This document shows, piece by piece, positions 5,745-50,588 of a stretch of DNA of 64,000 nt. The translations under genes and the position numbers were made by a program. This DNA comes from an uncultured Candidatus Actinomarina sp. Lineage in GTDB: Bacteria > Actinomycetota > Acidimicrobiia > Actinomarinales > Actinomarinaceae. The DNA is taken from the NCBI GenBank assembly GCA_902635945.1, contig CACPPU010000001.1, positions 431,216-495,215 on the forward strand, written 5' to 3'. The notes under the pieces are model-generated. The model was not told the origin of the DNA and searched no databases. It worked only from the letters and a program-made list of their open reading frames with translations. Positions within the stretch are counted from its first letter, which is position 1, and each line of letters begins with the position of its first letter.

Positions 5745-6888
5745 CTAATATCATATTAAATCTATCAAACATTTTATTTTCATTTAAATATGTAAAGATA
5801 AATTCTCTATTTTCAGTTCCTATTTTTTTTAATCTTTGTTTATCTTCAACAATTTTTAATTTATTCATTAAATCTTCGTAATCAAATTGATCAAATGCTA
5901 ATTTATATTTTTCAGGGAAAAATTCATGAATTCCTCCAGTTCTTGGATATATTGATGGAATACCAAGGTAAGAAGCTTCACAAAGCAAAGTTGGCTGACC
6001 TTCGTAAAGTTTAGTTGCTGTAACCACTGCTAACGAATTATAAATTAATTTTATTACCTTATCATTTGATATTGGACCTTCAAAGTAGATATTGGAATTG
6101 TTTTTATACTTTTTTTTCAACATATTTAAAATTGGCCCTTCGCCAACAATTTTAAGATTAATTTCATTGATATTTGAACTAACAAAACTTTTTATAAGCT
6201 CTTCTACTCCTTTTTCTTCAGAAACCCTCCCAGCATAAATTATGTAATCTTCTTGAGAGTCTTCATTTTTATTTATCTCTATATTTATTGGATTTGGATG
6301 CACAAAGATTTTTGACTTAGAAATGTCTAGTTTTAATAAAAATTTCTTATGAAACTCTGTTAAAACTAAAATCTTCAAGTCTGAATTTTTTAATATATTG
6401 AAGTATTTCCTTCCATAAATAAGTATTAATAAAGACTTGATTAAAGATTCTTTAAAATAATTATTGAAGATAACAAATCTTTTTTTTCTAAAACCGCAAG
6501 CTTCACAAAATTCTTTACCTTTTAAATGATCTGAAATATATATAGATCGTGTACAAAAATAGCGAAAATTATGAAGTTTAAGAATTACATCTAACTTGTG
6601 CCTATCAGCGACTTTGAATATTCCTAGAGATGCTTTAAACCAAGTATTGTGAATGTATATTGCATCTGGTTTAAATTCTTTTATTTTCTTTTCAAGAATG
6701 TATGTACTTTTAGTATTTTTATTGGTTATAAAAGTGAAAAAATCAAAAAAATAATTTGTAATTTTATTTTCAAAGTATAAATACTCTACTTTATAATTTT
6801 TTTTTAAAAATTTTATTTCATTTTCAACTGCAATATCTTCGCCACCAATTTGTTGATATTTGTTATGTATAACTAAAAGTTTTTTCAT
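5737..6888 (-). CDS. GT-B fold glycosyltransferase (GT4-like)
   Basis: GGEDIAVENE near the N-terminus and YEGQPTLLCEASYLGIPSIYPRTGGIHEF near the C-terminus. Confidence 0.65.
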   Translation of the reverse strand: MKKLLVIHNKYQQIGGEDIAVENEIKFLKKNYKVEYLYFENKITNYFFDFFTFITNKNTKSTYILEKKIKEFKPDAIYIHNTWFKASLGIFKVADRHKLDVILKLHNFRYFCTRSIYISDHLKGKEFCEACGFRKKRFVIFNNYFKESLIKSLLILIYGRKYFNILKNSDLKILVLTEFHKKFLLKLDISKSKIFVHPNPINIEINKNEDSQEDYIIYAGRVSEEKGVEELIKSFVSSNINEINLKIVGEGPILNMLKKKYKNNSNIYFEGPISNDKVIKLIYNSLAVVTATKLYEGQPTLLCEASYLGIPSIYPRTGGIHEFFPEKYKLAFDQFDYEDLMNKLKIVEDKQRLKKIGTENREFIFTYLNENKMFDRFNMILDE

Positions 6889-7027
6889 GATTCTTTATTA
6901 ATATATTTAATCATAACCAACGAAGGCAATTAAATTATTCACCTATTAAATTTAACTTGATCATATTGGAAGCTTTGAATCGAATTAAAGATTAAAAAAC
7001 CTATAAAATAATATATGTGGATAAGTT

Positions 7028-27551: not shown

Positions 27552-27558
27552 ATTTTTT

Positions 27559-27603
27559 GTGGCCAGAGGCAGAATCGAACTGCCGACCCCTTGTTTTTCA
27601 GAC
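27559..27603 (-). repeat. Partial tRNA-Phe copy A (3' 45 nt: anticodon loop to first C of CCA), att-like direct repeat
   Basis: Exact 45-nt identity with 33102-33146 of the intact tRNA-Phe gene, in the same orientation. Confidence 0.9.
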
Positions 27604-27721
27604 TAGGGCAAACCTTGTGACCTAAGAGAATTATAACTTATTCGACACTACTAAACAGTACTTTCACAGACACAAATTTTAGGGACTGAGTATGTAAAAT
27701 ATCGTATTGTCTTCTATTGAG

Positions 27722-27742
27722 TGGACGACGTTTGGACGACGT
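27722..27742 (+). repeat. Tandem direct repeat TGGACGACGT x2 (11-nt period)
   Basis: Read directly: tggacgacgt-t-tggacgacgt. It is GC-rich in an AT-rich non-coding stretch. Confidence 0.7.
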
Positions 27743-27772
27743 CAGAATTCACAGTTCAGAGTTATGCAAAGC

Positions 27773-28621
27773 TTAGGTAAAAGTTAGTAATTTATTATTT
27801 TTATGTGATTGAGGGTTTTCTTCCAGAACTATTAAATTAGGAATAATTTCTTTTAATTCATCTATTGTGTAAAAGTTGTATTTTTTTAAAAAAAAGTCTT
27901 TCTCAAGGTTGTGACTATTAACAATCATATATCCACTCCTAGATTTGTTGATTATTTTATTTAATGCAAGGTTTTGAAGATTTCTAGGAAGTTCACTAAA
28001 TGCATAATTGGAAATTATTAAATCGAATTCAAAATCATCTTGAAAATCATCTTCTAAGCTTTTAAAAGAATAATTAAAATTTACTTTAAAATTATTTAGG
28101 AATCTATCTATCAAAAGATTAACCTCTTTTAAGTCAACAAAAAGATAATTTTCAATATTAATAATTTTATCAAGTATTACTGATTGACCACCATAGCCTG
28201 CACCAATTTCAACTACATTTATTTTTTCAGTTATATTGAGCTTACTTTTTATGTCTAATCCTGTGTATAAGTATCTTAAAGATGAACCAGTAAGCTCAGT
28301 TGTAGAATCACTAAATTTAATTTTTTTAGGATTTCCAGGTTGGTCTAGAATTTTACAAATTGAATAAATATAATCATCTGAATAATTTAAATTTTTTAAA
28401 GCTTGATAATATTCCTTAGAAAGTTCAGGTGAAACATGTTCAAGAACGCTCGTATATGAACTATTATTTCTAAAATTTTGAAACACTTCATTGTCTTCTG
28501 AGGCGATTTTACAATATTCAGGATACCTTTTATTTGAAGAACGTGATAATTTAAAGTCAGACGTTAAATACTCAATGATTTTATAGATTAACTTTAAAAC
28601 TCTGTTTTTAAGTTTTCTCAT
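27773..28621 (-). CDS. Class I SAM-dependent methyltransferase (sugar O-methyltransferase-like)
   Basis: VVEIGAGYGGQSVIL (motif I) and LIISNYAFSELP. Confidence 0.5.
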   Translation of the reverse strand: MRKLKNRVLKLIYKIIEYLTSDFKLSRSSNKRYPEYCKIASEDNEVFQNFRNNSSYTSVLEHVSPELSKEYYQALKNLNYSDDYIYSICKILDQPGNPKKIKFSDSTTELTGSSLRYLYTGLDIKSKLNITEKINVVEIGAGYGGQSVILDKIINIENYLFVDLKEVNLLIDRFLNNFKVNFNYSFKSLEDDFQDDFEFDLIISNYAFSELPRNLQNLALNKIINKSRSGYMIVNSHNLEKDFFLKKYNFYTIDELKEIIPNLIVLEENPQSHKNNKLLTFT

Positions 28622-28671
28622 ATATATTATTTTAAAGACAATATTAATTCAGTTCTTTAAAATTAGAATCA

Positions 28672-30309
28672 ATGAACATTGTTATTTATTTAATCTTTTA
28701 TTTAACTCTCTTCACGCTTGGTGAAGTAATCAGAAGTTTGGTTTTTAAAGATCAAACTAAAATTTTCGGGGTAAATATATCAGTTTTTAATCCACTCTTT
28801 TTTTTGTTTTTTGCCGCAAATACAGTATTTCTTTTAAATTTCTTTTTACCAGGACTTAATATAGTTTACGGAGTATGGGTTTTTTCATTCCTAATATTAT
28901 TTTTAAAATTAAAAACAATTAATATTGATTTTGTATTTTTAATTCCTCCTTTAATTATTTCAGCTCTCTTGGGTTTTTCGATTTATGGAATTGACTTTCA
29001 TTACGATGCAGGTTTCTATCATCTCTTAAATCAAAGCTGGATTATCAGGGAAAAGGTTGTCTTTGGTTTAAGCAATATAATGTTTCCATTAGGTAATCAA
29101 AGTTTATATGAGTATTTATCAACATTGTTTTGGATTTCGGATAATTTTATAAATCTTCATTATTTAAATTTATCTTTTATAACTGTATTTTTTCACTTTA
29201 TTTTTGAGATTACTAAAAATGGTAACTCAAATTTTTTGAGACTTGCTGGAATAACCATAACAGTGTTTGGTTTTTTAGATAATGTAGGGTACAGGGGCGG
29301 TGCAAATGGTTTCCCAAACCTCCAGCACATTGGCAAACCAGATATTACTGTTGCAGTTCTTGTAATTATTTTTAATATATTAATAATTAATTATCTGGTT
29401 TCAAATGATACATCTCACATAAATATGAAGTTAATCTTATTCTTTGGCATTTTTTTAATTCAAATAAAGCCAACCAGTATGTACATACTCTTAATAATTT
29501 TTATTCATTTTTTTAGTACTAATTTTTCTTTTTTAAAGGCCAAATCTAACTTTAGATTTATAATTTCAGCAGTAGCACTGAATTTTTTTTGGGTATTAAA
29601 AAATGTTATTACAACAGGATGCCTTCTTTTTCCTGTGTCATTTACATGTTTTTATAGTTTACCTTGGTCAAATCAAAACTTAGTAAATGAAGCAAACAAA
29701 CACTATAGCGATGCATATTTGCCATACAAGATTGGTACTAATCCAATTGAATGGTTTGACAGTTGGAGAGAAGTAAATGTAAATAATCAAATTATGATAA
29801 ATTTTTTATTAAGTTTTGTGTGTATTTATTTTCTATTGAAATTGTTTACAGTTAAATCTAATAAAAAATCTTCTAAAAGCTTTGCTGTCAAAACGTACCT
29901 GTGGATTTCTTTAATATCTTTCTTTATATCGGTGCCATTATTTAGATACTCTTACGGAATACTGTCTTCACTTATTCTAGTTTTAGTAGTAGATAGATCT
30001 CTAAAGTTTGATTTAAGCCAAAAAAGAATATTGAACAATTTGTTGTTAATTATAATTTTAATCAGCCCTGGTCTTGTTGTTCGAGGGTACAGCTATATAA
30101 ACTTTATAAATATGCCCACAAATTATATAGAGCTAAAAATTCCATCTATCCAGTTCACAAAGAGCCAGTTTTATGGCGAATTACCAATTAAAGAAACCCT
30201 AAATCCAAATAAGAAATGCTGGATTAATGTTGAGTGCAATCCGGAAGACAAACAAATTTCAAAGAGAGAATATTTTGGTTATGTTTTTTTATCAGAAGAA
30301 AACGATTAA
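28672..30309 (+). CDS. Large polytopic membrane protein (polymerase / GT-C-like)
   Basis: 545 aa with at least 12 hydrophobic helices. No soluble catalytic domain recognised. Confidence 0.45.
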   Translation: MNIVIYLIFYLTLFTLGEVIRSLVFKDQTKIFGVNISVFNPLFFLFFAANTVFLLNFFLPGLNIVYGVWVFSFLILFLKLKTINIDFVFLIPPLIISALLGFSIYGIDFHYDAGFYHLLNQSWIIREKVVFGLSNIMFPLGNQSLYEYLSTLFWISDNFINLHYLNLSFITVFFHFIFEITKNGNSNFLRLAGITITVFGFLDNVGYRGGANGFPNLQHIGKPDITVAVLVIIFNILIINYLVSNDTSHINMKLILFFGIFLIQIKPTSMYILLIIFIHFFSTNFSFLKAKSNFRFIISAVALNFFWVLKNVITTGCLLFPVSFTCFYSLPWSNQNLVNEANKHYSDAYLPYKIGTNPIEWFDSWREVNVNNQIMINFLLSFVCIYFLLKLFTVKSNKKSSKSFAVKTYLWISLISFFISVPLFRYSYGILSSLILVLVVDRSLKFDLSQKRILNNLLLIIILISPGLVVRGYSYINFINMPTNYIELKIPSIQFTKSQFYGELPIKETLNPNKKCWINVECNPEDKQISKREYFGYVFLSEEND

Positions 30310-30412
30310 TCTAGAGCCCATTTAAAAAAAGTCTTCTAAAGTATTTGGGGTAGTAAAACTACTCCCCAGAAAAAAAATATACCCCCCACGTTTATTGGGT
30401 TTATGGATAGGT

Positions 30413-30422
30413 TGGACGACGT
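30413..30422 (+). repeat. Third copy of TGGACGACGT
   Basis: An exact 10-mer (11-mer TTGGACGACGT shared with 27732-27742), 26 nt left of tRNA-Phe fragment B. Confidence 0.7.
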
Positions 30423-30447
30423 TTTGTTTTTAAGAGGAAAAAACCCT

Positions 30448-30491
30448 GTGGCCAGAGGCAGAATCGAACTGCCGACCCCTTGTTTTTCAGA
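30448..30491 (-). repeat. Partial tRNA-Phe copy B (3' 44 nt), att-like direct repeat
   Basis: Exact 44-nt identity with 33102-33145 and 27559-27602. Confidence 0.9.
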
Positions 30492-30634
30492 TAAGGGTAA
30501 ACCTTTAAGGCCTACTTAATTTTACCTTATTCATTATTAATGTTCGCTCGTTGTTAGACACCCATATAACGTGAGTTAGCGGTAAATAAATAGGAATAAT
30601 TTATTGAGCTGAGGGCAGAATGTGGGCAGTTTTA

Positions 30635-30919
30635 TTAGTCATCTATTTCGAGCCACAAAATAATGAAACCGACAAGAATAAACGCTCCACCGAAATAGCC
30701 AAAAAAGTATTTGGATAACAGAGAAAAGGTATCCCAATAATAGATTAAGTAAACACCAGCCGCAGCCATAGTAAAAGGTAGATTTTTTCTGTCAGTGAGA
30801 ATATTAGCTATCACTTCAAATGGACCACTTACGTTGTGTTTGACCTTAAAATCATAATATCTGATTCCAAAAAAAAGAATTAATGCAGCAATCAGATATA
30901 TCATAATTTTACCTTTCAC
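30635..30919 (-). CDS. Small integral membrane protein (about 3 TM), unknown function
   Basis: 94 aa. Hydrophobic segments are IYLIAALILFFGI, AAAGVYLIYYW and GAFILVGFIILWL. It overlaps the upstream gene by 11 nt. Confidence 0.5.
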   Translation of the reverse strand: MKGKIMIYLIAALILFFGIRYYDFKVKHNVSGPFEVIANILTDRKNLPFTMAAAGVYLIYYWDTFSLLSKYFFGYFGGAFILVGFIILWLEIDD

Positions 30920-31202
30920 TTAAAACAGTTAGTAATGAAAATACATAAGCTAACCCTAAGCCTGCAAATGTACCGATATACCAAAACCAAATATTTGGGT
31001 CTGAGTACCCATACATTTCTCTTGCCCAAAATGGAAATGAAGCAACACCTAAGGGCATTGGGAATGTCCAGATTAAAGCCCAAAATGTTCCAACTAAATA
31101 TGACATTGCCCAAAAGGCTTTCCAGAGATATACTGTCCCGGAAATAAGCGGACCGGCAATCATAGAGGTGTACATCAACACTCTGAAAATTAAAGAAAAC
31201 AC
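30909..31202 (-). CDS. Small Trp/Phe-rich integral membrane protein (about 3 TM), unknown function
   Basis: 97 aa, with MIAGPLISGTVYLW, YLVGTFWALIWTF and IGTFAGLGLAYVFSLL. Confidence 0.5.
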   Translation of the reverse strand: MFSLIFRVLMYTSMIAGPLISGTVYLWKAFWAMSYLVGTFWALIWTFPMPLGVASFPFWAREMYGYSDPNIWFWYIGTFAGLGLAYVFSLLTVLSER

Positions 31203-31232
31203 TTTGTACCTTTTATACTTCTTAAGTAATTA

Positions 31233-32255
31233 TTATTTGGAAAATTTGATAACACAAACACTATCTGCATATAAATCATAATCATTCCTGACAATCAGCT
31301 CGATTTTAAATTCTGGATTTTCCGATTCAACATATCTCTCTATCAACTGACCATAAAGGGTTGTAGTATTAGCCTCTGGAAAAGGAAAGACGTCATCATT
31401 AAAACCTTTTTCAAAATATGCACGACTATAATTTTCCCCATCTTTTTGTATAAAGGTTCCAAAATATGCAAGACCAGCATTACCAGTATTTATATTAAAT
31501 TTAATTTCATAAGAATCTTCAGTTATTTCTTCTGCTGGACAGTCAAGCATATCTATTTCTGGAGGTAAGGCATCAATAACCCACTCTTTATAGGTACTTT
31601 CAAAACCTTCTAACTCAGTTCGAGTTGCTAAATATGTATACCAAATTGGAACATCCATTGGGACAGGTTCCCAATCTTTTTCAATATAAGCCCACCAAGT
31701 TCCGTTTTGATAAAATGGAAGTCCATATAGATATGTCCACTCAGGGTAATCTGAATTATCGTCAAGAAACTTACAGTTATAGCTCACTGTTAAGAAATAT
31801 CCGTATCTTTTATTGCTTTCATCAATAACTATATGCATAGAGTCCGCGTAATAATCATTTGCTTCGTTTAGTTCTAAGTATTCGTCTAGCAAAGCTTCGT
31901 GTACAGTACCTCTTTCTTTTCTAAAACATTCATAATTATTAAATACAAAATATTTAGGTTCTCTTTTGTTTAGTAAAAGTGTTTTATTAGCTTCTTCATA
32001 CTTAAAAACTACATAATTATTAATTCTATTTGCTTTGTAATAGGCAAGAAAATTATCACCCAGTTTATTAATATCAACTTCGGTTGTGGTAGTTGAGTTA
32101 GAGATTATTTGAGAAACTTCAGTAATTTCAATATCATTTTCTGTGAGATTAGGTTCATCTCGAAACCAAATTAATGTTGATGCTAATGCAATAGATATAA
32201 CTAAAACAAAAGCAAAAGTAGCATCAGTGATTTTAGTCATTAAATAATCTTTCAA
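31233..32255 (-). CDS. N-terminally membrane-anchored exported protein, unknown function
   Basis: 340 aa with a single N-terminal helix FAFVLVISIALASTLIW, followed by an acidic, Tyr/Trp-rich domain with 4 Cys. No family recognised. Confidence 0.5.
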   Translation of the reverse strand: MKDYLMTKITDATFAFVLVISIALASTLIWFRDEPNLTENDIEITEVSQIISNSTTTTEVDINKLGDNFLAYYKANRINNYVVFKYEEANKTLLLNKREPKYFVFNNYECFRKERGTVHEALLDEYLELNEANDYYADSMHIVIDESNKRYGYFLTVSYNCKFLDDNSDYPEWTYLYGLPFYQNGTWWAYIEKDWEPVPMDVPIWYTYLATRTELEGFESTYKEWVIDALPPEIDMLDCPAEEITEDSYEIKFNINTGNAGLAYFGTFIQKDGENYSRAYFEKGFNDDVFPFPEANTTTLYGQLIERYVESENPEFKIELIVRNDYDLYADSVCVIKFSK

Positions 32256-32769
32256 TCAACACTTCTAAGAATGACTTTACAATTATTGGCTCGTCACAAC
32301 TATTAAAGAAAGAAAAATTTTCTGCTAATTCAAGAAGTTCATCATTTACCTCTTCATATGAATAATACAAATCCATATTTCCAGTACTCACAAAACCAAA
32401 TAAATATGCCGAAGAAGTTGATAAAAGTTCAAAAGATTTCACTGTATCCTCATTATGCTTTTCGTTTTTATAATTAGGTTCAAGCAATAGTGACTGATTG
32501 TAAATTTCTTCAAATTCAAGTACTGCGTCAGCAAATATATCAACTAATCCTAAAATTAAATCTTCATCTCCACTTGTAATAGCATCATTAAACAAACCAA
32601 AAGCTAGGGTACTCTTACTTGCCTTTTCATCTAAAAACTTGAAATCTTCTTCATATTGAAGACATTTTTCATATTCTTCTGCATAACTACTATCTTCAGG
32701 AATAAATTGAATTTCAGATGGACCACACGAAGTAATAAGAAGTGAAATAATTAATACTTTTTTAAGCAC
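32233..32769 (-). CDS. Putative lipoprotein, acidic helical, unknown function
   Basis: A signal peptide with lipobox-like LLITSC at residues 10-15. It overlaps its neighbours by 8 and 23 nt. Confidence 0.5.
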   Translation of the reverse strand: MLKKVLIISLLITSCGPSEIQFIPEDSSYAEEYEKCLQYEEDFKFLDEKASKSTLAFGLFNDAITSGDEDLILGLVDIFADAVLEFEEIYNQSLLLEPNYKNEKHNEDTVKSFELLSTSSAYLFGFVSTGNMDLYYSYEEVNDELLELAENFSFFNSCDEPIIVKSFLEVLIERLFND

Positions 32770-33004
32770 TATTGTTTAATTTTCTTTTAATCCACTTGAA
32801 CATGCTTGTTATGAGTCTAATTATTACTGTTGGAAATACATAAAGAAAAATATAAGTAAGCACAATAAATAAGAGATATTCACCAACTCCTGCCCTAACT
32901 TCAGAAAATACTGGGACATCAGTGTAAGTATTAAAAATAGAAAAACCGATTATGAATACAACGTATATTTTCCCACCAGTAGATTCAGGAATTAAATTTT
33001 TCAT
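32762..33004 (-). CDS. Small membrane protein (2 TM), unknown function
   Basis: 80 aa, with IYVVFIIGFSIF and LLFIVLTYIFLYVFPTVII. It is the first gene of the islet-2 operon. Confidence 0.45.
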   Translation of the reverse strand: MKNLIPESTGGKIYVVFIIGFSIFNTYTDVPVFSEVRAGVGEYLLFIVLTYIFLYVFPTVIIRLITSMFKWIKRKLNNSA

Positions 33005-33010
33005 AAAAAA

Positions 33011-33054
33011 ATTTTATCATTAACGAATTTTTGATGTCGCCAAAGTTGTCGCCA
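33011..33054 (-). promoter_or_regulatory. Putative leaderless promoter with duplicated TGGCGACA element
   Basis: On the minus strand: TGGCGACA-actt-TGGCGACA-(18 nt)-TAAAAT (preceded by TGa, an extended -10)-tttttt-ATG. The -10 lies 6 nt from the start codon. Confidence 0.35.
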
Positions 33055-33099
33055 TTTAAGAAAGTTCGTGTTCTGACTTCTGTAAACACCAATAGTTAT

Positions 33100-33175
33100 T
33101 GGTGGCCAGAGGCAGAATCGAACTGCCGACCCCTTGTTTTTCAGACAAGTGCTCTACCGACTGAGCTATCTGGCC
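33100..33175 (-). tRNA. tRNA-Phe (GAA), CCA encoded
   Basis: The reverse complement folds as a cloverleaf: GGCCAGA/TCTGGCC acceptor, GCTC/GAGC D stem, CTTGT-CTGAAAA-ACAAG anticodon arm, GGCAG-TTCGATT-CTGCC T arm, A-CCA. Confidence 0.95.
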
Positions 33176-47617: not shown

Positions 47618-48912
47618 TGGAAAATATTTCAGTAAATAACTTAGTTGAATCAACAAACTCAAATCTTCCTCGAGATATAAAGATTGAATTCGCAAAAAAT
47701 ATTCTCTCTTCAATTAAAAATCCTGATGATGCAAAAAAAGAGTTCGAGTTGTTAATCAACAAACTAAGTTTGAAAAAACAAAGAGAAATTATAAATGCAA
47801 CCGGTACTGTGCTTCATACAAATTTAGGCAGATCTCCAGTAAATGTATCTTTTTCAGGAATGTACACAAATATAGAATACGACTTAACAACTGCTTCAAG
47901 GGGTAATCGTAATGATTATTTAACAGAGTCTATGAAGGTTTTATTAGGTGTTGAAAATGTAGCTTTTGTTAACAACAATGCTTCCTCTCTATACCTATCT
48001 TTACTGTGTCTAGCAAAAAAACATAGCAAAGATACAGTCATAGTGTCCAGAGGTGAAATCATTGAAATTGGAGGTTCTTACAGGCTTCCAGATATAATAT
48101 CTGAAACTGGTATGAATTTAATAGAGGTTGGTACAACAAATAAAACTCGTTTAAGTGATTATGAGGGTGCCTTGAAGGAATATCCTAACTCTGTTGTGTT
48201 AAAAGTTCATAGAAGCAATTTTTCAATTAGTGGATTTACTGAAGAAGTTGGAATTGCTGAACTTGCTGAATTAAAAAATAAATATGATACATTACTAATC
48301 CATGATCTGGGTAGTGGCCTAGTGATTGAAAGCTCTTTTTTAACAAAACACAGTTTATCAATTTTTGAAAAAGAGCCTAGAGTTCAACAATCCATAAGAG
48401 ATGGTGTTGATATTGTGATGTTCTCTGGAGATAAGTTATTTGGCTCAGTGCAATCAGGAATTATTGCAGGAAAAGAAGGATTGATTAATTCAATAAAAAA
48501 CTTCAGCATCTTCAGAACTTACAGATGCTCAGATATAGTTTTATATGAACTTCAAAAAACTACAGAATTATATATTCAAAAAAATGAAGAGAATATTCCA
48601 TTTTGGAATCTTTTAAAAAAGACATATTCAGAGCTAGAAAGTAGATTTGAAAAAATTACTGAAAAAAGCAATATTAAATACAAAATAATTAACGGTGAAA
48701 GCCTGATTGGAGGTGGAACACTGCCGAATATAACTCTAAGTTCTCCTGTAATGGTTCTAGATGTTGATAAATCAGAAAATGTTTTGATGAAACTAATTAG
48801 GAATGAATATCCAATTATTCCAAGAGTAGTTGATGGAAAAATAAATATTGATTTGAGGAGTGTATTCGAAAATCAAGATGATGAAATTGCTAAATTTCTA
48901 CATTCTTTATGA
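47617..48912 (+). CDS. selA: L-seryl-tRNA(Sec) selenium transferase
   Basis: INATGTVLHTNLGRSP and FSGDKLFGSVQSGIIAGK (PLP-lysine region) are SelA signatures. The start overlaps the apbC stop (TAATG). Confidence 0.8.
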   Translation: MENISVNNLVESTNSNLPRDIKIEFAKNILSSIKNPDDAKKEFELLINKLSLKKQREIINATGTVLHTNLGRSPVNVSFSGMYTNIEYDLTTASRGNRNDYLTESMKVLLGVENVAFVNNNASSLYLSLLCLAKKHSKDTVIVSRGEIIEIGGSYRLPDIISETGMNLIEVGTTNKTRLSDYEGALKEYPNSVVLKVHRSNFSISGFTEEVGIAELAELKNKYDTLLIHDLGSGLVIESSFLTKHSLSIFEKEPRVQQSIRDGVDIVMFSGDKLFGSVQSGIIAGKEGLINSIKNFSIFRTYRCSDIVLYELQKTTELYIQKNEENIPFWNLLKKTYSELESRFEKITEKSNIKYKIINGESLIGGGTLPNITLSSPVMVLDVDKSENVLMKLIRNEYPIIPRVVDGKINIDLRSVFENQDDEIAKFLHSL

Positions 48913-50588
48913 CCGTATTAGCTACAGCTGGTCATGTGGATCATGGCAAGTCCACATTAGTTAATTTCTTAACAGGACAAGAAACTGACCGCTTAAAAGA
49001 AGAAAAGCAAAGAGGCCTAACCATTAGTCTTGGCTATACATACTTTGATTATGAAGAAAGTAGATTTTCAATTGTTGATGTGCCGGGTCACTCTGATTAT
49101 TTTAAAAATACAATTAGTGGTTTTTCCAATGTTGATGGAGTTTTGTTTTGTGTTGACTCAACCCAGGGTTGGTCTCAACAATCAGAAGAGCATTTTTTGT
49201 CACTTATAAATCTAGGAATTAATAATCTACTATTTTTCCTGACTAAAACAGATAAAAAAGATATCGTGTTTGGCAAAAATGAATTGATAAATAAATTAAT
49301 TGACCATGAAGAGATTAATTACTCGTTGGTTGAGTTTAGTTCAATAAATAGTAATAAAAAATCAGTACAAAAAATTATTTATGAATTTTTTAATAAATCT
49401 GAATCAAATATAAATCCTCCTTCTTTGTGGGTTGATAGAGTATTTTCTATTGAAGGGATAGGAAAAGTAATTACTGGAACAGCAAGTAAAAATATGAGTT
49501 TTGACAAGGTATTTGTAAATGATCAACAAACTCAATTAGATATAAGAGAAGTAGAGTCAGTGGGTCAAAAATTGAATACTTTAATTACCTCATCTTCAAG
49601 AATTGCAATATCTTTAAAAAATAATAAAAGTGATCCAGGAAAAGGGAGTTTGTTAACTAATCAATTAATTGAAAAAACTACTTACATGCTTATAAGACAA
49701 AATACAGATTCGGCTTTATTTTTGGAAAAAGGAACTTTAAGAATTTATGTTGGCACACACACTCAAATTATTAAGAAATGTAGAACCATTAAAATCGACA
49801 ACAAAATGTTCTTGCTAGTGCAATTAGAAAAAAGTATTCCTGTCCTGAGTTTACAAAAAGTTTTAGTACATAACCTGTCTAAAAAAATGTTCATCGGAGG
49901 AAGTGTTGTTCACTCAACGAATAATCGTTATTTAATAAAAAAATTAAACAGAGATTTTCGGATGAAAGATAATATAAATTCAGAAGAGATATTTACATTA
50001 ATTCCTGAAAACCTAATAGCCAGTAACAGCGAGGAGTTTAAAAAAATTGGAAAATTCTTCATTAAAAACAACGATTTAAAAACTTTAGAAGAAAATATTA
50101 AATCAAATATTATCGAAATTAATAAGTCTGGTGTTGGTAGTTATTTTTATAAAAATTTTTATATAGAGGAAAAAGAATTAAAAAAACTTATTGTTGACTT
50201 CAAATCCATAAAAATTCAGAAGGATCAAATTGTTGAAAATAAGATATTAGATATAGATAGCCAGCTTCTTGCGGAACTTAAATCCCAATTGGGTGATGCA
50301 CTAAATGTTAATGAAGTGGACTTAAGGAAATACGATACAGAAGCAATTAAATCTTTATTTATGAATGGTTGTCTGTTTAGAGTTACAAAAAACATAGTTA
50401 TTTCGGAAGACCATAAAAATCAACTAACCGAAATTATCGATTCTTTACCAGATAAATTTTCAGTAACAGATTTTAAAGAACAGTCATCTCTTACGAGAAA
50501 ATATGCCATTCCATATTTAGAATTTTTAGATAAAGAGTTGGTGACACAAAAAATAGACTCTAGTGGTTTAAGAACAAAAATAAATTAG
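48909..50588 (+). CDS. selB: Selenocysteine-specific translation elongation factor
   Basis: ATAGHVDHGKSTLV, TDRLKEEKQRGLTI and DVPGH form the GTPase domain. A long C-terminal extension follows. The start overlaps the selA stop (ATGA). Confidence 0.8.
   Translation: MTVLATAGHVDHGKSTLVNFLTGQETDRLKEEKQRGLTISLGYTYFDYEESRFSIVDVPGHSDYFKNTISGFSNVDGVLFCVDSTQGWSQQSEEHFLSLINLGINNLLFFLTKTDKKDIVFGKNELINKLIDHEEINYSLVEFSSINSNKKSVQKIIYEFFNKSESNINPPSLWVDRVFSIEGIGKVITGTASKNMSFDKVFVNDQQTQLDIREVESVGQKLNTLITSSSRIAISLKNNKSDPGKGSLLTNQLIEKTTYMLIRQNTDSALFLEKGTLRIYVGTHTQIIKKCRTIKIDNKMFLLVQLEKSIPVLSLQKVLVHNLSKKMFIGGSVVHSTNNRYLIKKLNRDFRMKDNINSEEIFTLIPENLIASNSEEFKKIGKFFIKNNDLKTLEENIKSNIIEINKSGVGSYFYKNFYIEEKELKKLIVDFKSIKIQKDQIVENKILDIDSQLLAELKSQLGDALNVNEVDLRKYDTEAIKSLFMNGCLFRVTKNIVISEDHKNQLTEIIDSLPDKFSVTDFKEQSSLTRKYAIPYLEFLDKELVTQKIDSSGLRTKIN

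What the first reader, a model, noticed from the sequence alone, without database searches (positions are those of the whole stretch)
30635..33004. Islet 2 is a compact five-gene operon encoding only membrane, lipoprotein or exported proteins of unknown family
Five minus-strand genes are packed with 8-, 23- and 11-nt overlaps and one 30-nt gap.
- 80 aa, 2 TM.
- 178 aa, acidic lipoprotein with an LLITSC lipobox.
- 340 aa, N-terminally anchored Tyr/Trp-rich ectodomain with 4 Cys.
- 97 aa, Trp/Phe-rich, 3 TM.
- 94 aa, 3 TM.
I recognise no enzymatic, transport or regulatory motif in any of them. The whole unit is the sole cargo of a tRNA-flanked insertion within a surface-glycan island. An all-envelope, horizontally delivered module in that position is a good candidate for a novel cell-surface system, such as phage exclusion or receptor masking, an envelope-stress or adhesion complex, or an unusual small transporter.
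Basis: inference. Interest (0 to 1): 0.65.

Follow-up and report, generated by a model that had tools for sequence, protein, structure and literature searches.

The report
Mosaic tRNA-Phe cassette of surface proteins
A 2.6-kb insert beside a tRNA gene in the marine bacterium Candidatus Actinomarina carries five small envelope-protein genes, but they are a patchwork of separately mobile pieces: only the first three travel together, as cargo of a small integrating element, so this is an ordinary example of a known island-building process whose genes still have no known function.

Summary
The five minus-strand ORFs, their overlaps and their tRNA-Phe flanks are real. The genome is Candidatus Actinomarina. 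The site is its known envelope-glycan flexible island (fGI1/HVR), where cassettes ending in a partial-tRNA repeat have already been described.

The five genes are not one conserved unit.
- g1 (80 aa), g2 (178 aa) and g3 (340 aa) keep their order in at least six divergent metagenomic loci (37-52% aa identity, dN/dS 0.13-0.5). In L034+L012 they are cargo of a ~9.2-kb tRNA-Phe element with integrase, excisionase-like HTH, Cro-like HTH and an AAA_25 replication protein.
- g4 (97 aa) is a separate, strongly conserved small membrane protein. It is never next to close g3 homologues elsewhere.
- g5 (89-94 aa) occurs elsewhere as a stand-alone ~535-bp single-gene cassette.

The window cassette has mismatched arm repeats and no integrase, so it is a fused remnant.

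No known family, defence system or enzyme fold matches any of the five. g3 is a stalked, two-domain, beta-rich surface protein from a modular lipoprotein family.

The function is unknown. My best guess, at low confidence, is an element-borne surface module for exclusion or masking. No expression data could be obtained.

The parts
33100..33175 (-). Intact tRNA-Phe(GAA). Its 3' 48 nt (33102-33149) form the attL-side core of the insertion.
   Evidence: ARAGORN; Rfam tRNA, 75 bits; repeat D2.
33033..33099 (-). Left (P') arm of the cassette. It holds two copies of the arm motif GGCGACA (33047-33053 and 33035-33041). A promoter-like site (-35 GCGACA, TG-extended -10 TAAAAT, 33040-33011) points into g1.
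   Evidence: Sequence. 96% identical to the P' arm in L018. Same motif at both ends of the L001 cassette. Promoter scan, which is a consensus match only.
32762..33004 (-). g1: 80-aa basic (pI 9.6) small membrane protein, about 2 TM. Conserved N-terminus MxxLIPxxTGGKIYV and a Lys-rich C-terminal tail. First gene of the conserved triad.
   Evidence: Homologues upstream of g3 homologues in L001-3, L012, L013 and L037. dN/dS about 0.2. Superfamily link to the L018 83-aa protein: hhalign 96%, E 2.5e-9. That protein hits phrog_23647, a 'membrane protein, moron' family, at E 3.6e-5.
32233..32769 (-). g2: 178-aa acidic (pI 4.05) lipoprotein with lipobox LLITS|C. Two further Cys lie near the two ends of the mature protein. 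Second gene of the triad.
   Evidence: 42-43% identical homologues directly upstream of g3 homologues in L015 and L035. 140-148-aa lipoproteins occupy the same position in L012 and L013. dN/dS about 0.5.
31233..32255 (-). g3: 340/335-aa exported, N-terminally anchored protein. After the anchor come a Thr-rich linker (SNSTTTTEVD), an N domain (about 62-205, alpha+beta, motif LYGxPFYQxGxWW) and a C domain (about 207-340, Ig-like beta-sandwich). Four Cys are invariant. Third gene of the triad.
   Evidence: homologues P0002-6 have true lipoboxes. AF2 pLDDT 71, about 90 for the C domain. Foldseek gives only generic Ig/FN3 matches. The profile search finds 66 relatives that share one or the other domain. 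dN/dS 0.13-0.37.
30909..31202 (-). g4: 97/88-aa Trp/Phe-rich small membrane protein, about 3 TM, core motif YLWKAFWAM...WTFPMPLG...FPFWAR...IWFWY. It is a separately distributed gene family and not part of the triad.
   Evidence: 12 homologue clusters, 65% mean column identity. dN/dS 0.23-0.30. Absent from all loci with close g3 homologues. Found near other lipoproteins and in an integrase element, L016.
30635..30919 (-). g5: 94/89-aa small membrane protein, about 3 TM. Elsewhere it is a stand-alone single-gene cassette.
   Evidence: The only homologues are near-identical (96-98% aa) copies. In L038-L043 it lies between two tRNA-Phe cores about 535 bp apart, beside an oxidoreductase cassette and not g4. 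The CDS is 98% nt identical while the adjacent arm is about 60% identical.
30496..30634 (-). Right (P) arm, about 140 nt, a conserved arm family. It holds two copies of a different motif, CTGCCCACA (30621-30629) and CTGCCCTCA (30610-30618). It belongs to the g5 cassette lineage.
   Evidence: Alignment of ten P arms. Sequence. 88% match of 30427-30911 to L038.
30448..30495 (-). Partial tRNA-Phe (3' 48 nt), the attR-side core. It is followed by a terminator-like hairpin and T-run (30457-30444).
   Evidence: ARAGORN calls it a 79-nt pseudo tRNA-Phe. Rfam does not.

Best explanation
What it is (shown). The islet is a non-autonomous, integrase-less gene cassette. It sits at the 3' end of tRNA-Phe in the envelope-glycan flexible island (fGI1/HVR) of a Candidatus Actinomarina genome. 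It is a fusion of at least two, probably three, separately mobile pieces.

1. The g1-g2-g3 triad. This is a conserved three-gene envelope module: a small 2-TM protein, a small acidic Cys-pair lipoprotein, and a stalked two-domain beta-rich surface protein or lipoprotein. Elsewhere it is cargo of a ~9.2-kb tRNA-Phe-specific integrative element. That element encodes a tyrosine integrase with an AP2-like arm-binding N-terminus, an HTH_17 excisionase-like protein, a Cro-like HTH and an AAA_25 primase/helicase-like protein.
2. g4. This is a strongly conserved Trp-rich small membrane protein that recurs in other cassettes, next to other stalked lipoproteins.
3. g5. This is a small membrane protein that circulates as a ~535-bp single-gene cassette.

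How it got there (shown and inferred). Delivery was by site-specific recombination between an element attP (P arm, 48-nt tRNA-Phe core, P' arm, with paired arm-type repeats) and the tRNA. This is inferred from the att anatomy and from the integrase in L034. Later the mobility genes and one internal att junction were lost. This is inferred from the mismatched arm repeats.

How it works (inferred).
- The genes are read from a promoter in the P' arm through to the terminator-like hairpin after the partial tRNA.
- The products are exported. g2 is lipidated. The window copy of g3 has lost the lipobox of its homologues and keeps a TM or cleavable-signal anchor. All sit on the outer face of the membrane of a cell that probably has no outer membrane.
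- The Thr-rich stalk is probably O-glycosylated.
- The most likely role, at about 35%, is an element-borne surface module that changes what phages or other elements meet at the envelope: superinfection exclusion or receptor masking.
- It has no enzyme, transporter or regulator.
For: Organism and island.
- ArgS is 93% identical to that of an Actinomarina SAG.
- The flanks encode glycosyl- and sugar-transferases.
- PMC7771536 and bioRxiv 10.64898/2026.04.03.716425 describe tRNA-repeat cassettes and a Phe/Arg/Lys/Asp tRNA boundary in this island.

att anatomy.
- The 48-nt repeat occurs three times in the window.
- tRNA-Phe carries no cassette in L006, L008 and L011 and one to four in other loci.
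- Paired arm motifs match at both ends in 8 of the 11 cassettes I inspected by eye. They do not match in the window cassette.

Triad.
- Only window 31229-33040 is shared with L001-3, at 93% nt.
- g1/g2/g3 order is kept at 37-52% aa identity in L012, L013, L015, L035 and L037.
- The genes are under purifying selection.

Parent element.
- L034 gene content and Pfam/PHROG hits.
- A contiguous attP-like junction with CTGTACGCA repeats on both sides.
- L012 bridges the two ends of L034 at 99.7-100% identity.

g4 and g5 are independent.

Surface nature.
- Lipoboxes and Thr-rich linkers in g2, in g3 homologues and in family members.
- An Ig-like C domain.
- No enzyme or defence family.
Against: No expression data were found. 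The genotype is rare in the public runs (depth 2-7), and no metatranscriptome holds it.

The exclusion or masking role rests only on context: element cargo, envelope location and a glycan-island setting. There is no similarity to any known exclusion protein or PADLOC family. None of g3, g4 or the g1-like protein of L018 has a homologue in 50,697 phage genomes.

g1-like, g4-like and g3-like genes do co-occur in one other cassette type, L018-L020. A looser functional link between g4 and the stalked lipoproteins therefore cannot be excluded.

L034 could be a tandem junction rather than an excised circle. Its host is inferred only from the att core, the P-arm similarity and the low GC content. Its integrase has no close relative in GTDB representative genomes or IMG/VR.

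The g3 N-domain model is of low confidence.
Confidence: 0.6

Rival explanations
1. All five genes form one operon that encodes a single novel multi-subunit cell-surface system, whose parts need each other.
For: - The genes share a strand, overlap or lie 30 nt apart, and no terminator-like site separates g3 from g4.
- Contigs from other samples carry the window-type g3/g4 junction.
- g1-like, g4-like and g3-like genes also share a cassette in L018-L020.
- g4 homologues directly follow a large stalked lipoprotein in L016/L017 and two stalked lipoproteins, one with the g3 N-domain motif, in L031.
Against: - g4 and g5 are absent from every other locus that holds a close g3 homologue. In L001 the att repeat follows g3 directly.
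- g5 is a self-contained cassette elsewhere.
- Homology to that g5 cassette begins exactly at the g4 stop codon.
- The arm repeats at the two ends differ.
Confidence: 0.08
2. The triad is host-beneficial cargo for substrate capture. g3 and g2 would be surface-tethered binding proteins for a polymer or nutrient, by analogy with tycheposon nutrient cargo and SusE/F-like lipoproteins. It would not be an anti-phage device.
For: - The g3 N and C domains occur in other lipoproteins fused to extracellular nuclease (GmrSD_C/DUF1524 with Excalibur), fn3 and SusE modules.
- Tycheposon cargo in Prochlorococcus is mostly nutrient acquisition.
Against: - g3 itself carries no catalytic or known binding domain.
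- No transporter or enzyme accompanies the triad in any of about ten contexts.
- In the fusion proteins these domains are more simply read as stalk or spacer modules.
Confidence: 0.2
3. The genes are decaying passengers. They would be leftover cargo of dead elements with no current function, and g5 might not be a gene at all.
For: - The cassette has no integrase and has mismatched ends.
- g5 has no homologues beyond near-identical copies.
- About six ORFs of 94 or more codons are expected by chance in a window this AT-rich (my estimate).
- No expression evidence was found.
Against: - dN/dS is 0.13-0.3 for g1, g3 and g4, and gene order is kept across 40-60% protein divergence.
- All reading frames are intact.
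- The g5 CDS is 98% conserved while the adjacent arm is about 60% conserved, and it recurs in at least 13 contigs from different surveys.
Confidence: 0.07
4. The cluster is a remnant of a phage lysis cassette. g1 would be a class-II-like holin (2 TM, basic C-terminal tail) with accessory lipoproteins.
For: g1 has the size, the roughly 2-TM layout and the Lys-rich tail of a holin. A g1-superfamily member hits a PHROG membrane-protein family.
Against: - No endolysin or other lysis enzyme lies in any context.
- The PHROG family is filed under morons, not lysis.
- The parent element L034 has no virion or lysis genes.
- Neither the window g1 nor any of three other g1-superfamily members matches a holin family in Pfam or PHROGs.
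Confidence: 0.03

Closest known systems
Additive gene cassettes with a partial-tRNA direct repeat in fGI1 (the 'glycotype' island) of Ca. Actinomarinales (Lopez-Perez et al. 2020, PMC7771536); the HVR of 'Actinomarina, resolved' (bioRxiv 10.64898/2026.04.03.716425)
   Same: Same organism group, same island and same tRNA cluster (Asp/Phe/Lys/Arg). The inserted cassette ends in the same tell-tale direct repeat of the tRNA 3' part. The setting is low in GC.
   Different: In the passages I searched, those papers name no integrase (the word occurs in neither text), and the preprint calls the integration mechanism still to be identified. Here each cassette also shows a conserved ~140-nt arm and paired arm-type repeats. 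A candidate autonomous parent element (L034) is identified. This particular cassette is shown to be a fusion.
Tycheposons of Prochlorococcus (Hackl et al., bioRxiv 10.1101/2020.12.28.424599)
   Same: Both are cargo-carrying integrative elements at tRNA genes in a streamlined marine bacterium. Both leave partial tRNAs, stack in tandem and decay into island genes. Both have an integration module plus a small replication module (primase/helicase, xis) plus cargo.
   Different: - The host is an actinobacterium. The paper reports relatives only in Alpha-, Gamma- and Deltaproteobacteria.
- The L034 integrase points outward, towards att, not inward.
- Membership of the tycheposon integrase lineage and hallmark set was not tested.
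- The cargo here is envelope proteins, not nutrient-uptake operons.
CIMEs (cis-mobilisable elements): att-flanked islets without recombination genes, described in Streptococcus thermophilus ICE families (my own knowledge, not checked here)
   Same: Both are short cargo segments bounded by attL and attR of an integrative-element family but lacking an integrase. In principle they can be mobilised in trans or accreted in tandem.
   Different: Trans-mobilisation is untested here. The window cassette has non-matching arms, which argues against simple excision by one integrase.
Integron gene-cassette arrays
   Same: L038 shows four cassettes, three of them with a single called gene, in 3.9 kb next to one attachment site. 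Each ends in a conserved recombination module.
   Different: - The repeat is a tRNA 3' fragment plus an arm with double-stranded-type arm repeats.
- No IntI-type integrase is adjacent.
- No covariation supports a folded attC-like site.
Prophage- or element-encoded surface exclusion proteins, such as lipoprotein Ltp of Streptococcus phage TP-J34, Llp of T5, Sie proteins of lactococcal phages, and membrane proteins of actinobacteriophage prophages (my own knowledge, not checked here)
   Same: Both are small membrane proteins and lipoproteins encoded at the att-proximal end of an integrated element. They are plausibly expressed from the integrated state and act at the envelope.
   Different: - There is no sequence or fold similarity to any of them.
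- Function is untested.
- The parent element has no virion genes.

Membership tests
fGI1 tRNA-direct-repeat cassette of Ca. Actinomarinales | Lies in the conserved envelope-polysaccharide island of an Actinomarinales genome | tested here: met
   ArgS is 93% identical to that of an Actinomarina SAG and the tRNA order is syntenic. The flanks encode a polyprenyl glycosylphosphotransferase, a sugar O-methyltransferase and a LIC_10190-family membrane protein.
fGI1 tRNA-direct-repeat cassette of Ca. Actinomarinales | Inserted at one of the island's tRNAs and closed by a direct repeat of part of that tRNA | tested here: met
   Full tRNA-Phe at 33100-33175 and a 47/48 repeat at 30448-30495.
fGI1 tRNA-direct-repeat cassette of Ca. 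Actinomarinales | Presence, absence and content vary among related genomes | tested here: met
   No cassette in L006, L008 and L011; one to four cassettes with different cargo in L001, L004, L005, L007, L009 and L038.
Autonomous integrative element (tycheposon-like) | Encodes its own site-specific integrase | tested here: not met
   No integrase lies in the cassette, and tblastn with the L016 integrase finds none in the 64-kb window. The related element L034 does encode one.
Autonomous integrative element (tycheposon-like) | Integrase belongs to the tycheposon-specific tyrosine recombinase lineage and the element shares the hallmark gene set | not tested
   No tycheposon profiles were available. 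L034 has integrase, HTH_17 and AAA_25 only by Pfam/PHROG.
Autonomous integrative element (tycheposon-like) | [quoted passage not shown] | tested here: not met
   In L034 the integrase (5848-6993, +) is read towards the adjacent att core at about 7395.
   Only g1-g2-g3 co-occur. g4 and g5 lie elsewhere.
   No metatranscriptome holds the sequence. The promoter and terminator scan is only suggestive.
Bacterial lipoprotein (g2; g3 homologues) | N-terminal signal with a lipobox [LVI][ASTVI][GAS]C after a basic n-region and a hydrophobic h-region | tested here: met
   g2 reads MLKKVLIISLLITS|C. g3 homologues read LLLVSC, LFVSC and LILIAC. The window g3 itself lacks the Cys and has a TM or ALA|S signal instead.
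Bacterial lipoprotein (g2; g3 homologues) | Processing by Lgt and LspA, and lipid attachment | not testable with these tools
   Needs biochemistry, for example globomycin sensitivity or mass spectrometry.
Known anti-phage defence or superinfection-exclusion families | Sequence or fold homology to a described defence or exclusion protein | tested here: not met
   PADLOC gives no hits. PHROGs give none for the window proteins. BFVD and PDB folds are only generic Ig/FN3. The phage tblastn searches with g3, g4 and the g1-like protein of L018 give none.
Known anti-phage defence or superinfection-exclusion families | Blocks infection or entry when expressed | not testable with these tools
   Needs an experiment, and no cultured host exists.
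Holin (g1) | Small protein with two or more TM segments and a charged C-terminus, encoded next to an endolysin | tested here: not met
   The shape fits. No endolysin lies in any context, and no holin family is hit by the window g1 or by three other g1-superfamily members.

The most novel reading that the evidence does not exclude
The tRNA-Phe site of Actinomarina would work as an integron-like gene-capture platform. Cassettes of one to a few genes, each ending in a conserved ~190-nt module (arm repeats, P arm and a 48-nt tRNA fragment), would be captured and shuffled in trans by AP2-domain tyrosine integrases. Those integrases would be supplied by rare ~9-kb int-xis-cro-repA elements such as L034. 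The g1-g2-g3 triad, with g4-type partners, would be a new family of element-encoded envelope modules that exclude phages or rival elements. That would give the 'glycotype' island a protein-based layer of surface variation as well as a glycan one.
Probability: 0.15. Interest if true: 0.7.

Novelty: new member of a known kind. Interest (0 to 1): 0.4.

Why it matters
Actinomarina is among the smallest and most abundant surface-ocean bacteria. Its one large flexible island is thought to set phage susceptibility.

The recent complete-genome study calls the mechanism that fills this island 'likely' tRNA-targeted integration and says the integration mechanism still has to be identified. This locus and its relatives supply concrete parts for that mechanism:
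- a defined attachment core;
- a conserved arm with paired, cassette-specific repeats;
- a candidate autonomous element with integrase, excisionase-like and replication genes;
- arrays of mostly single-gene cassettes.

These make the mechanism testable.

The cargo shows that the island diversifies stalked surface lipoproteins and small membrane proteins as well as glycans. If the triad proves to be an exclusion or masking device, it would be a new envelope-level defence in a lineage that lacks CRISPR and most known systems.

As it stands, the finding is a typical cargo cassette of unknown function.

Tried and rejected
Family and structure searches.
- Pfam, PHROGs, NCBIfam and PADLOC on all five proteins gave nothing significant. 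The best hits were DUF6050 at E 0.54 and MbpB at E 0.017; I treat both as noise.
- A profile of the g3 family against PDB sequences gave nothing.
- Foldseek of the g3 model against PDB and BFVD gave only generic Ig/FN3 sandwiches with TM-scores about 0.2. I rejected the transglutaminase, RbmA and NPC2 matches as fold-class matches only.
- A separate model of the g3 N domain had pLDDT 59 and no fold hit with E below 0.7, so it is uninformative.

Searches for relatives that found none.
- g3 relatives in GTDB representative genomes and IMG/VR.
- g4 family in the same collections.
- g3, g4 and the g1-like protein of L018 in 50,697 phage genomes.
- The L034 integrase in GTDB representatives. In IMG/VR it found only 26%-identical, unrelated integrases.

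Expression. No RNA run holds the sequence, and three metatranscriptomes from a related study show only the tRNAs.

Excision. An excision or empty-site junction in reads was not seen convincingly. One 35-nt-sided joint in X3 is probably a repeat artefact.

Ideas considered and dropped.
- Pseudo-tRNA or attC-like folding of the P arm plus core. ARAGORN calls the partial copies tRNA-Phe, but Rfam does not, and RNAalifold finds no compensatory pairs.
- The holin/lysis idea for g1, because no endolysin occurs anywhere.
- Repeats of tRNA-Asp, -Lys or -Arg elsewhere in the window: none.

Full report
**Observation**

The five ORFs exist exactly as described. All lie on the minus strand:
- g1, 32762-33004, 80 aa
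- g2, 32233-32769, 178 aa
- g3, 31233-32255, 340 aa
- g4, 30909-31202, 97 aa
- g5, 30635-30919, 94 aa

They overlap by 8, 23 and 11 nt and are separated once by 30 nt. Gene callers in public data start g3, g4 and g5 at downstream ATGs, giving 335, 88 and 89 aa.

g2 is acidic (pI 4.05) with the lipobox LLITS|C. g3 has one N-terminal hydrophobic segment, 29 Tyr, 7 Trp and 4 Cys. g4 has 7 Trp and 10 Phe. The TM counts are plausible from hydropathy, but no dedicated predictor was available.

An intact tRNA-Phe lies at 33100-33175, next to tRNA-Asp. Its 3' 48 nt are repeated (47/48) at 30448-30495. They are repeated again at 27557-27609 (none expected by chance).

So there are two tandem cassettes. 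A (30496-33101) is the finding. B (27610-30447) carries a LIC_10190-family membrane protein and a sugar O-methyltransferase. Of the window's four tRNA genes (Phe, Asp, Lys, Arg), only tRNA-Phe has partial repeats.

**Organism and setting**

ArgS in the window is 93% identical to that of an uncultured Candidatus Actinomarina SAG. The tRNA-Arg/Lys/Asp/Phe order is conserved in eight related genomes.

Two papers describe this place.
- Lopez-Perez et al. 2020 (PMC7771536) report a single flexible island for envelope polysaccharide in all Actinomarinales. [quoted passage not shown]
- 'Actinomarina, resolved' places a hypervariable region between tRNA clusters, with Phe, Arg, Lys and Asp on the right. 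It says the integration mechanism remains to be identified.

The first of these papers also argues that these cells probably lack an outer membrane, so a lipoprotein here would sit on the outer face of the cytoplasmic membrane.

**Are the five genes one unit? No.**

g3 has only six homologue clusters among 5.8 billion proteins. It has none in GTDB representative genomes or IMG/VR.

The closest contigs, L001-L003, match the window at 93% nt. The match covers only 31229-33040, which is g1, g2 and g3. In L001 the partial tRNA follows g3 directly, and two other genes (DUF805 and a 195-aa ORF) precede g1.

More distant loci keep the same three-gene order:

| Locus | g1 | g2 or positional equivalent | g3 |
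|---|---|---|---|
| L012 | 47% | 148-aa lipoprotein | 52% |
| L013 | 37% | 140-aa lipoprotein | 42% |
| L015 | not seen | 42% | 48% |
| L035 | not seen | 43% | 39% |
| L037 | 46% | not examined | 51% |

One locus, L032, has g3 without g1 or g2.

dN/dS is about 0.2 for g1, about 0.5 for g2 and 0.13-0.37 for g3. The triad is a real, conserved module.

**g4**

g4 belongs to a family of about twelve clusters with a very conserved core (65% mean column identity). Its dN/dS is 0.23-0.30. None of its homologues lies beside a close g3 homologue.

They occur in these settings:
- in a tRNA-Val-adjacent element with a tyrosine integrase, directly after a 612-aa stalked lipoprotein (L016);
- beside a g1-superfamily protein, a TM-anchored F5/8-type-C protein and a distant g3-family lipoprotein (L018-L020);
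- among other Thr-rich-stalk lipoproteins (L027, L028, L030, L031).

**g5**

g5 has no homologues except near-identical copies. In at least 13 contigs from several surveys it sits alone between two tRNA-Phe cores about 535 bp apart. Its neighbour there is an oxidoreductase cassette, not g4.

Homology between the window and that mini-cassette starts exactly at the g4 stop codon. The g5 coding sequence is 98% identical, while the adjacent arm is only about 60% identical.

**Attachment-site anatomy**

I aligned the flanks of all tRNA-Phe cores in the window and in related loci. Each cassette shows the same plan:
- just 3' of a core, two tandem copies of a 7-9-nt motif (the P' arm);
- at its far end, two copies of the same motif, followed by a conserved ~130-nt arm and the next core (the P arm).

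The motif differs between cassettes:

| Motif | Cassette |
|---|---|
| GGCGACA | L001 cassette 1 |
| CGTCGTCCA | window cassette B |
| CCGCACACA | L004, L007 |
| CTGTCACA | L005 |
| CTGTGCCA | L009 |
| CTGTACGCA | L034 |
| CTACGACA | L038 cassette 1 |

It matches at both ends in 8 of the 11 cassettes I inspected by eye.

Cassette A is one of the exceptions. Its left arm carries GGCGACA, as does the L001 cassette that holds the same triad. Its right arm carries CTGCCCNCA, the g5-cassette type.

Taken with the gene distributions, this means cassette A is a fusion. An internal P arm, core and P' arm junction has been lost.

**The parent element**

L034 (8.6 kb) carries, in order:
- a g3 homologue (51%);
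- a 62-aa Cys-rich (CxxC) ORF;
- a 391-aa mucin-like lipoprotein;
- an AAA_25 protein that matches phage primase/helicase families;
- an HTH_17 (excisionase-type) protein;
- a Cro-like HTH protein;
- a 255-aa ORF;
- a 381-aa tyrosine integrase with an AP2-like N-terminus.

These are followed by a P arm, the tRNA-Phe core and a P' arm, with CTGTACGCA repeats on both sides.

After that comes a 138-aa ORF. In L012 this ORF lies just upstream of g1, the g2-position lipoprotein and g3. L012 overlaps both ends of L034 at 99.7-100% identity. The two contigs therefore close into a ~9.2-kb circle or a tandem repeat.

The triad is thus cargo of an autonomous tRNA-Phe integrative element, and the window cassette is its integrase-less remnant. 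A related integrase (69% identical to that of L016) sits in a tRNA-Ile island with a restriction-modification pair in an OCS155 SAG. This shows that such integrases do occur in the order. The window itself has none.

**What the proteins are**

g3 homologues begin with true lipoboxes. The window variant has lost the Cys and keeps a TM or cleavable signal.

The rest of g3 is laid out as follows:
- an invariant Thr-rich linker, SN(S/T)TTTTEVD;
- an alpha+beta N domain;
- a confidently predicted beta-sandwich C domain (AF2 pLDDT 71 overall, about 90 for the C domain).

Foldseek finds only generic Ig/FN3 sandwiches in PDB and in viral models.

An exhaustive profile search finds 66 relatives. Most of those I read in full are lipoproteins with Ser/Thr-rich stalks. 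They combine the N or the C domain with other modules: fn3, SusE, or a GmrSD_C/DUF1524 nuclease with Excalibur.

So g3 belongs to a modular family of stalked surface lipoproteins and has no catalytic part. g2 is a small acidic lipoprotein. Its 140-148-aa positional equivalents are only weakly similar, at 22-24% identity. g1 is a basic protein with about 2 TM segments. Its superfamily includes the L018 83-aa protein, which matches a PHROG 'membrane protein, moron' family.

**Mechanism**

Shown:
- the att anatomy;
- the mosaic structure;
- the carriage of the triad by an integrase element;
- purifying selection;
- the export signals.

Inferred:
- integration by the element's integrase at the tRNA-Phe 3' end, followed by loss of the mobility genes and an internal deletion;
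- read-through from a promoter-like site in the P' arm (33040-33011) to the hairpin and T-run after the partial tRNA (30457-30444);
- surface display, and O-glycosylation of the stalk.

Function. Small integrating elements tend to keep att-proximal membrane and lipoprotein genes that act on the envelope of the carrier cell. This is my own knowledge of Ltp-, Llp- and Sie-type proteins and was not checked here. The island itself is thought to be shaped by phage pressure. I therefore rank an exclusion or masking role first, at about 35%. A substrate-binding role comes second, at about 20%. Neither has direct support.

**What failed**

Expression could not be assessed. Public runs hold the genotype only at depth 2-7, and no metatranscriptome holds it. 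Other negative results are listed under Tried and rejected.

**Verdict**

The 'five-gene system' interpretation is not. What is there is a fused, non-autonomous tRNA-Phe cassette of a published kind. It carries one conserved three-gene envelope module of unknown function plus two unrelated small membrane-protein genes.

The by-products are of moderate interest to specialists in marine microbial genome plasticity. They are the paired arm repeats, the arrays of mostly single-gene cassettes, and a candidate autonomous element.

Noticed in passing
window 27557-30447: A second tandem tRNA-Phe cassette (B). It is bounded by the cores at 30448-30495 and 27557-27609. It carries a 545-aa LIC_10190-family membrane protein (28672-30309, +) and a 282-aa putative sugar O-methyltransferase (27773-28621, -). 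The arm motif CGTCGTCCA appears at both ends.
   Followed up: partly
window 30610-30629 and 33035-53; L034 7235-7270 and 7462-7486; L038 1-3960: Each tRNA-Phe cassette carries paired 7-9-nt repeats in both arms. The sequence is specific to the cassette and usually matches at the two ends. These look like arm-type integrase sites. The passages I searched in the two Actinomarina papers do not mention them.
   Followed up: partly
L038 1-3960: An integron-like array: tRNA-Phe followed by four cassettes in 3.9 kb. They carry a 399-aa lipoprotein, a 273-aa FAD/NAD oxidoreductase, g5, and a small TM ORF. Five cores are present. The P' motif of cassette 2 (ACGGGGACA) matches the P motif of cassette 4, which suggests nested or rearranged cassettes.
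   Followed up: partly
L034 1-8589 with L012 1-2816: A ~9.2-kb circularly permuted or tandem tRNA-Phe integrative element with int, HTH_17, Cro-like HTH and AAA_25 genes, plus envelope cargo that includes the triad. It has no close relative in GTDB representative genomes or IMG/VR.
   Followed up: yes
window 30448-30526; also L005 4143-4222 and L009 1394-1473: ARAGORN calls the partial tRNA-Phe copies, together with part of the P arm, 79-80-nt tRNA-Phe genes with a shifted anticodon. The arm can pair with the acceptor 3' strand. Rfam does not score them, and no compensatory changes support a structure.
   Followed up: partly
L016 1348-9142: An integrase-bearing element next to tRNA-Val. It carries a g4 homologue, a 612-aa stalked lipoprotein (related to the C-terminal half of P0039), a SHOCT protein, an HTH_36 protein and small Cys-pair lipoproteins.
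   Followed up: partly
L026 7814-12852: In an OCS155 (Actinomarinales) SAG, a ~4.9-kb island lies between two tRNA-Ile copies. It holds a related tyrosine integrase, an embedded tRNA-Leu, a DNA methyltransferase-like ORF, an adjacent 248-aa ORF (together read by eye as a restriction-modification pair), a vWA-like protein and a GDSL-like protein.
   Followed up: no
window 48909-50588: A divergent selB-like elongation factor (TIGR00475, 194.5 bits, below the 242 cut-off). This agrees with the report of divergent selB and universal selenocysteine machinery near the right boundary of the HVR.
   Followed up: no
L018 2052-2666; L027 1311-1883; L028 828-1394: TM-anchored proteins of about 190-200 aa recur next to g4 homologues in three different cassette types. 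The L018 and L027 copies have an F5/8-type-C (discoidin-like) domain by Pfam; the L028 copy looks like them by eye only.
   Followed up: no
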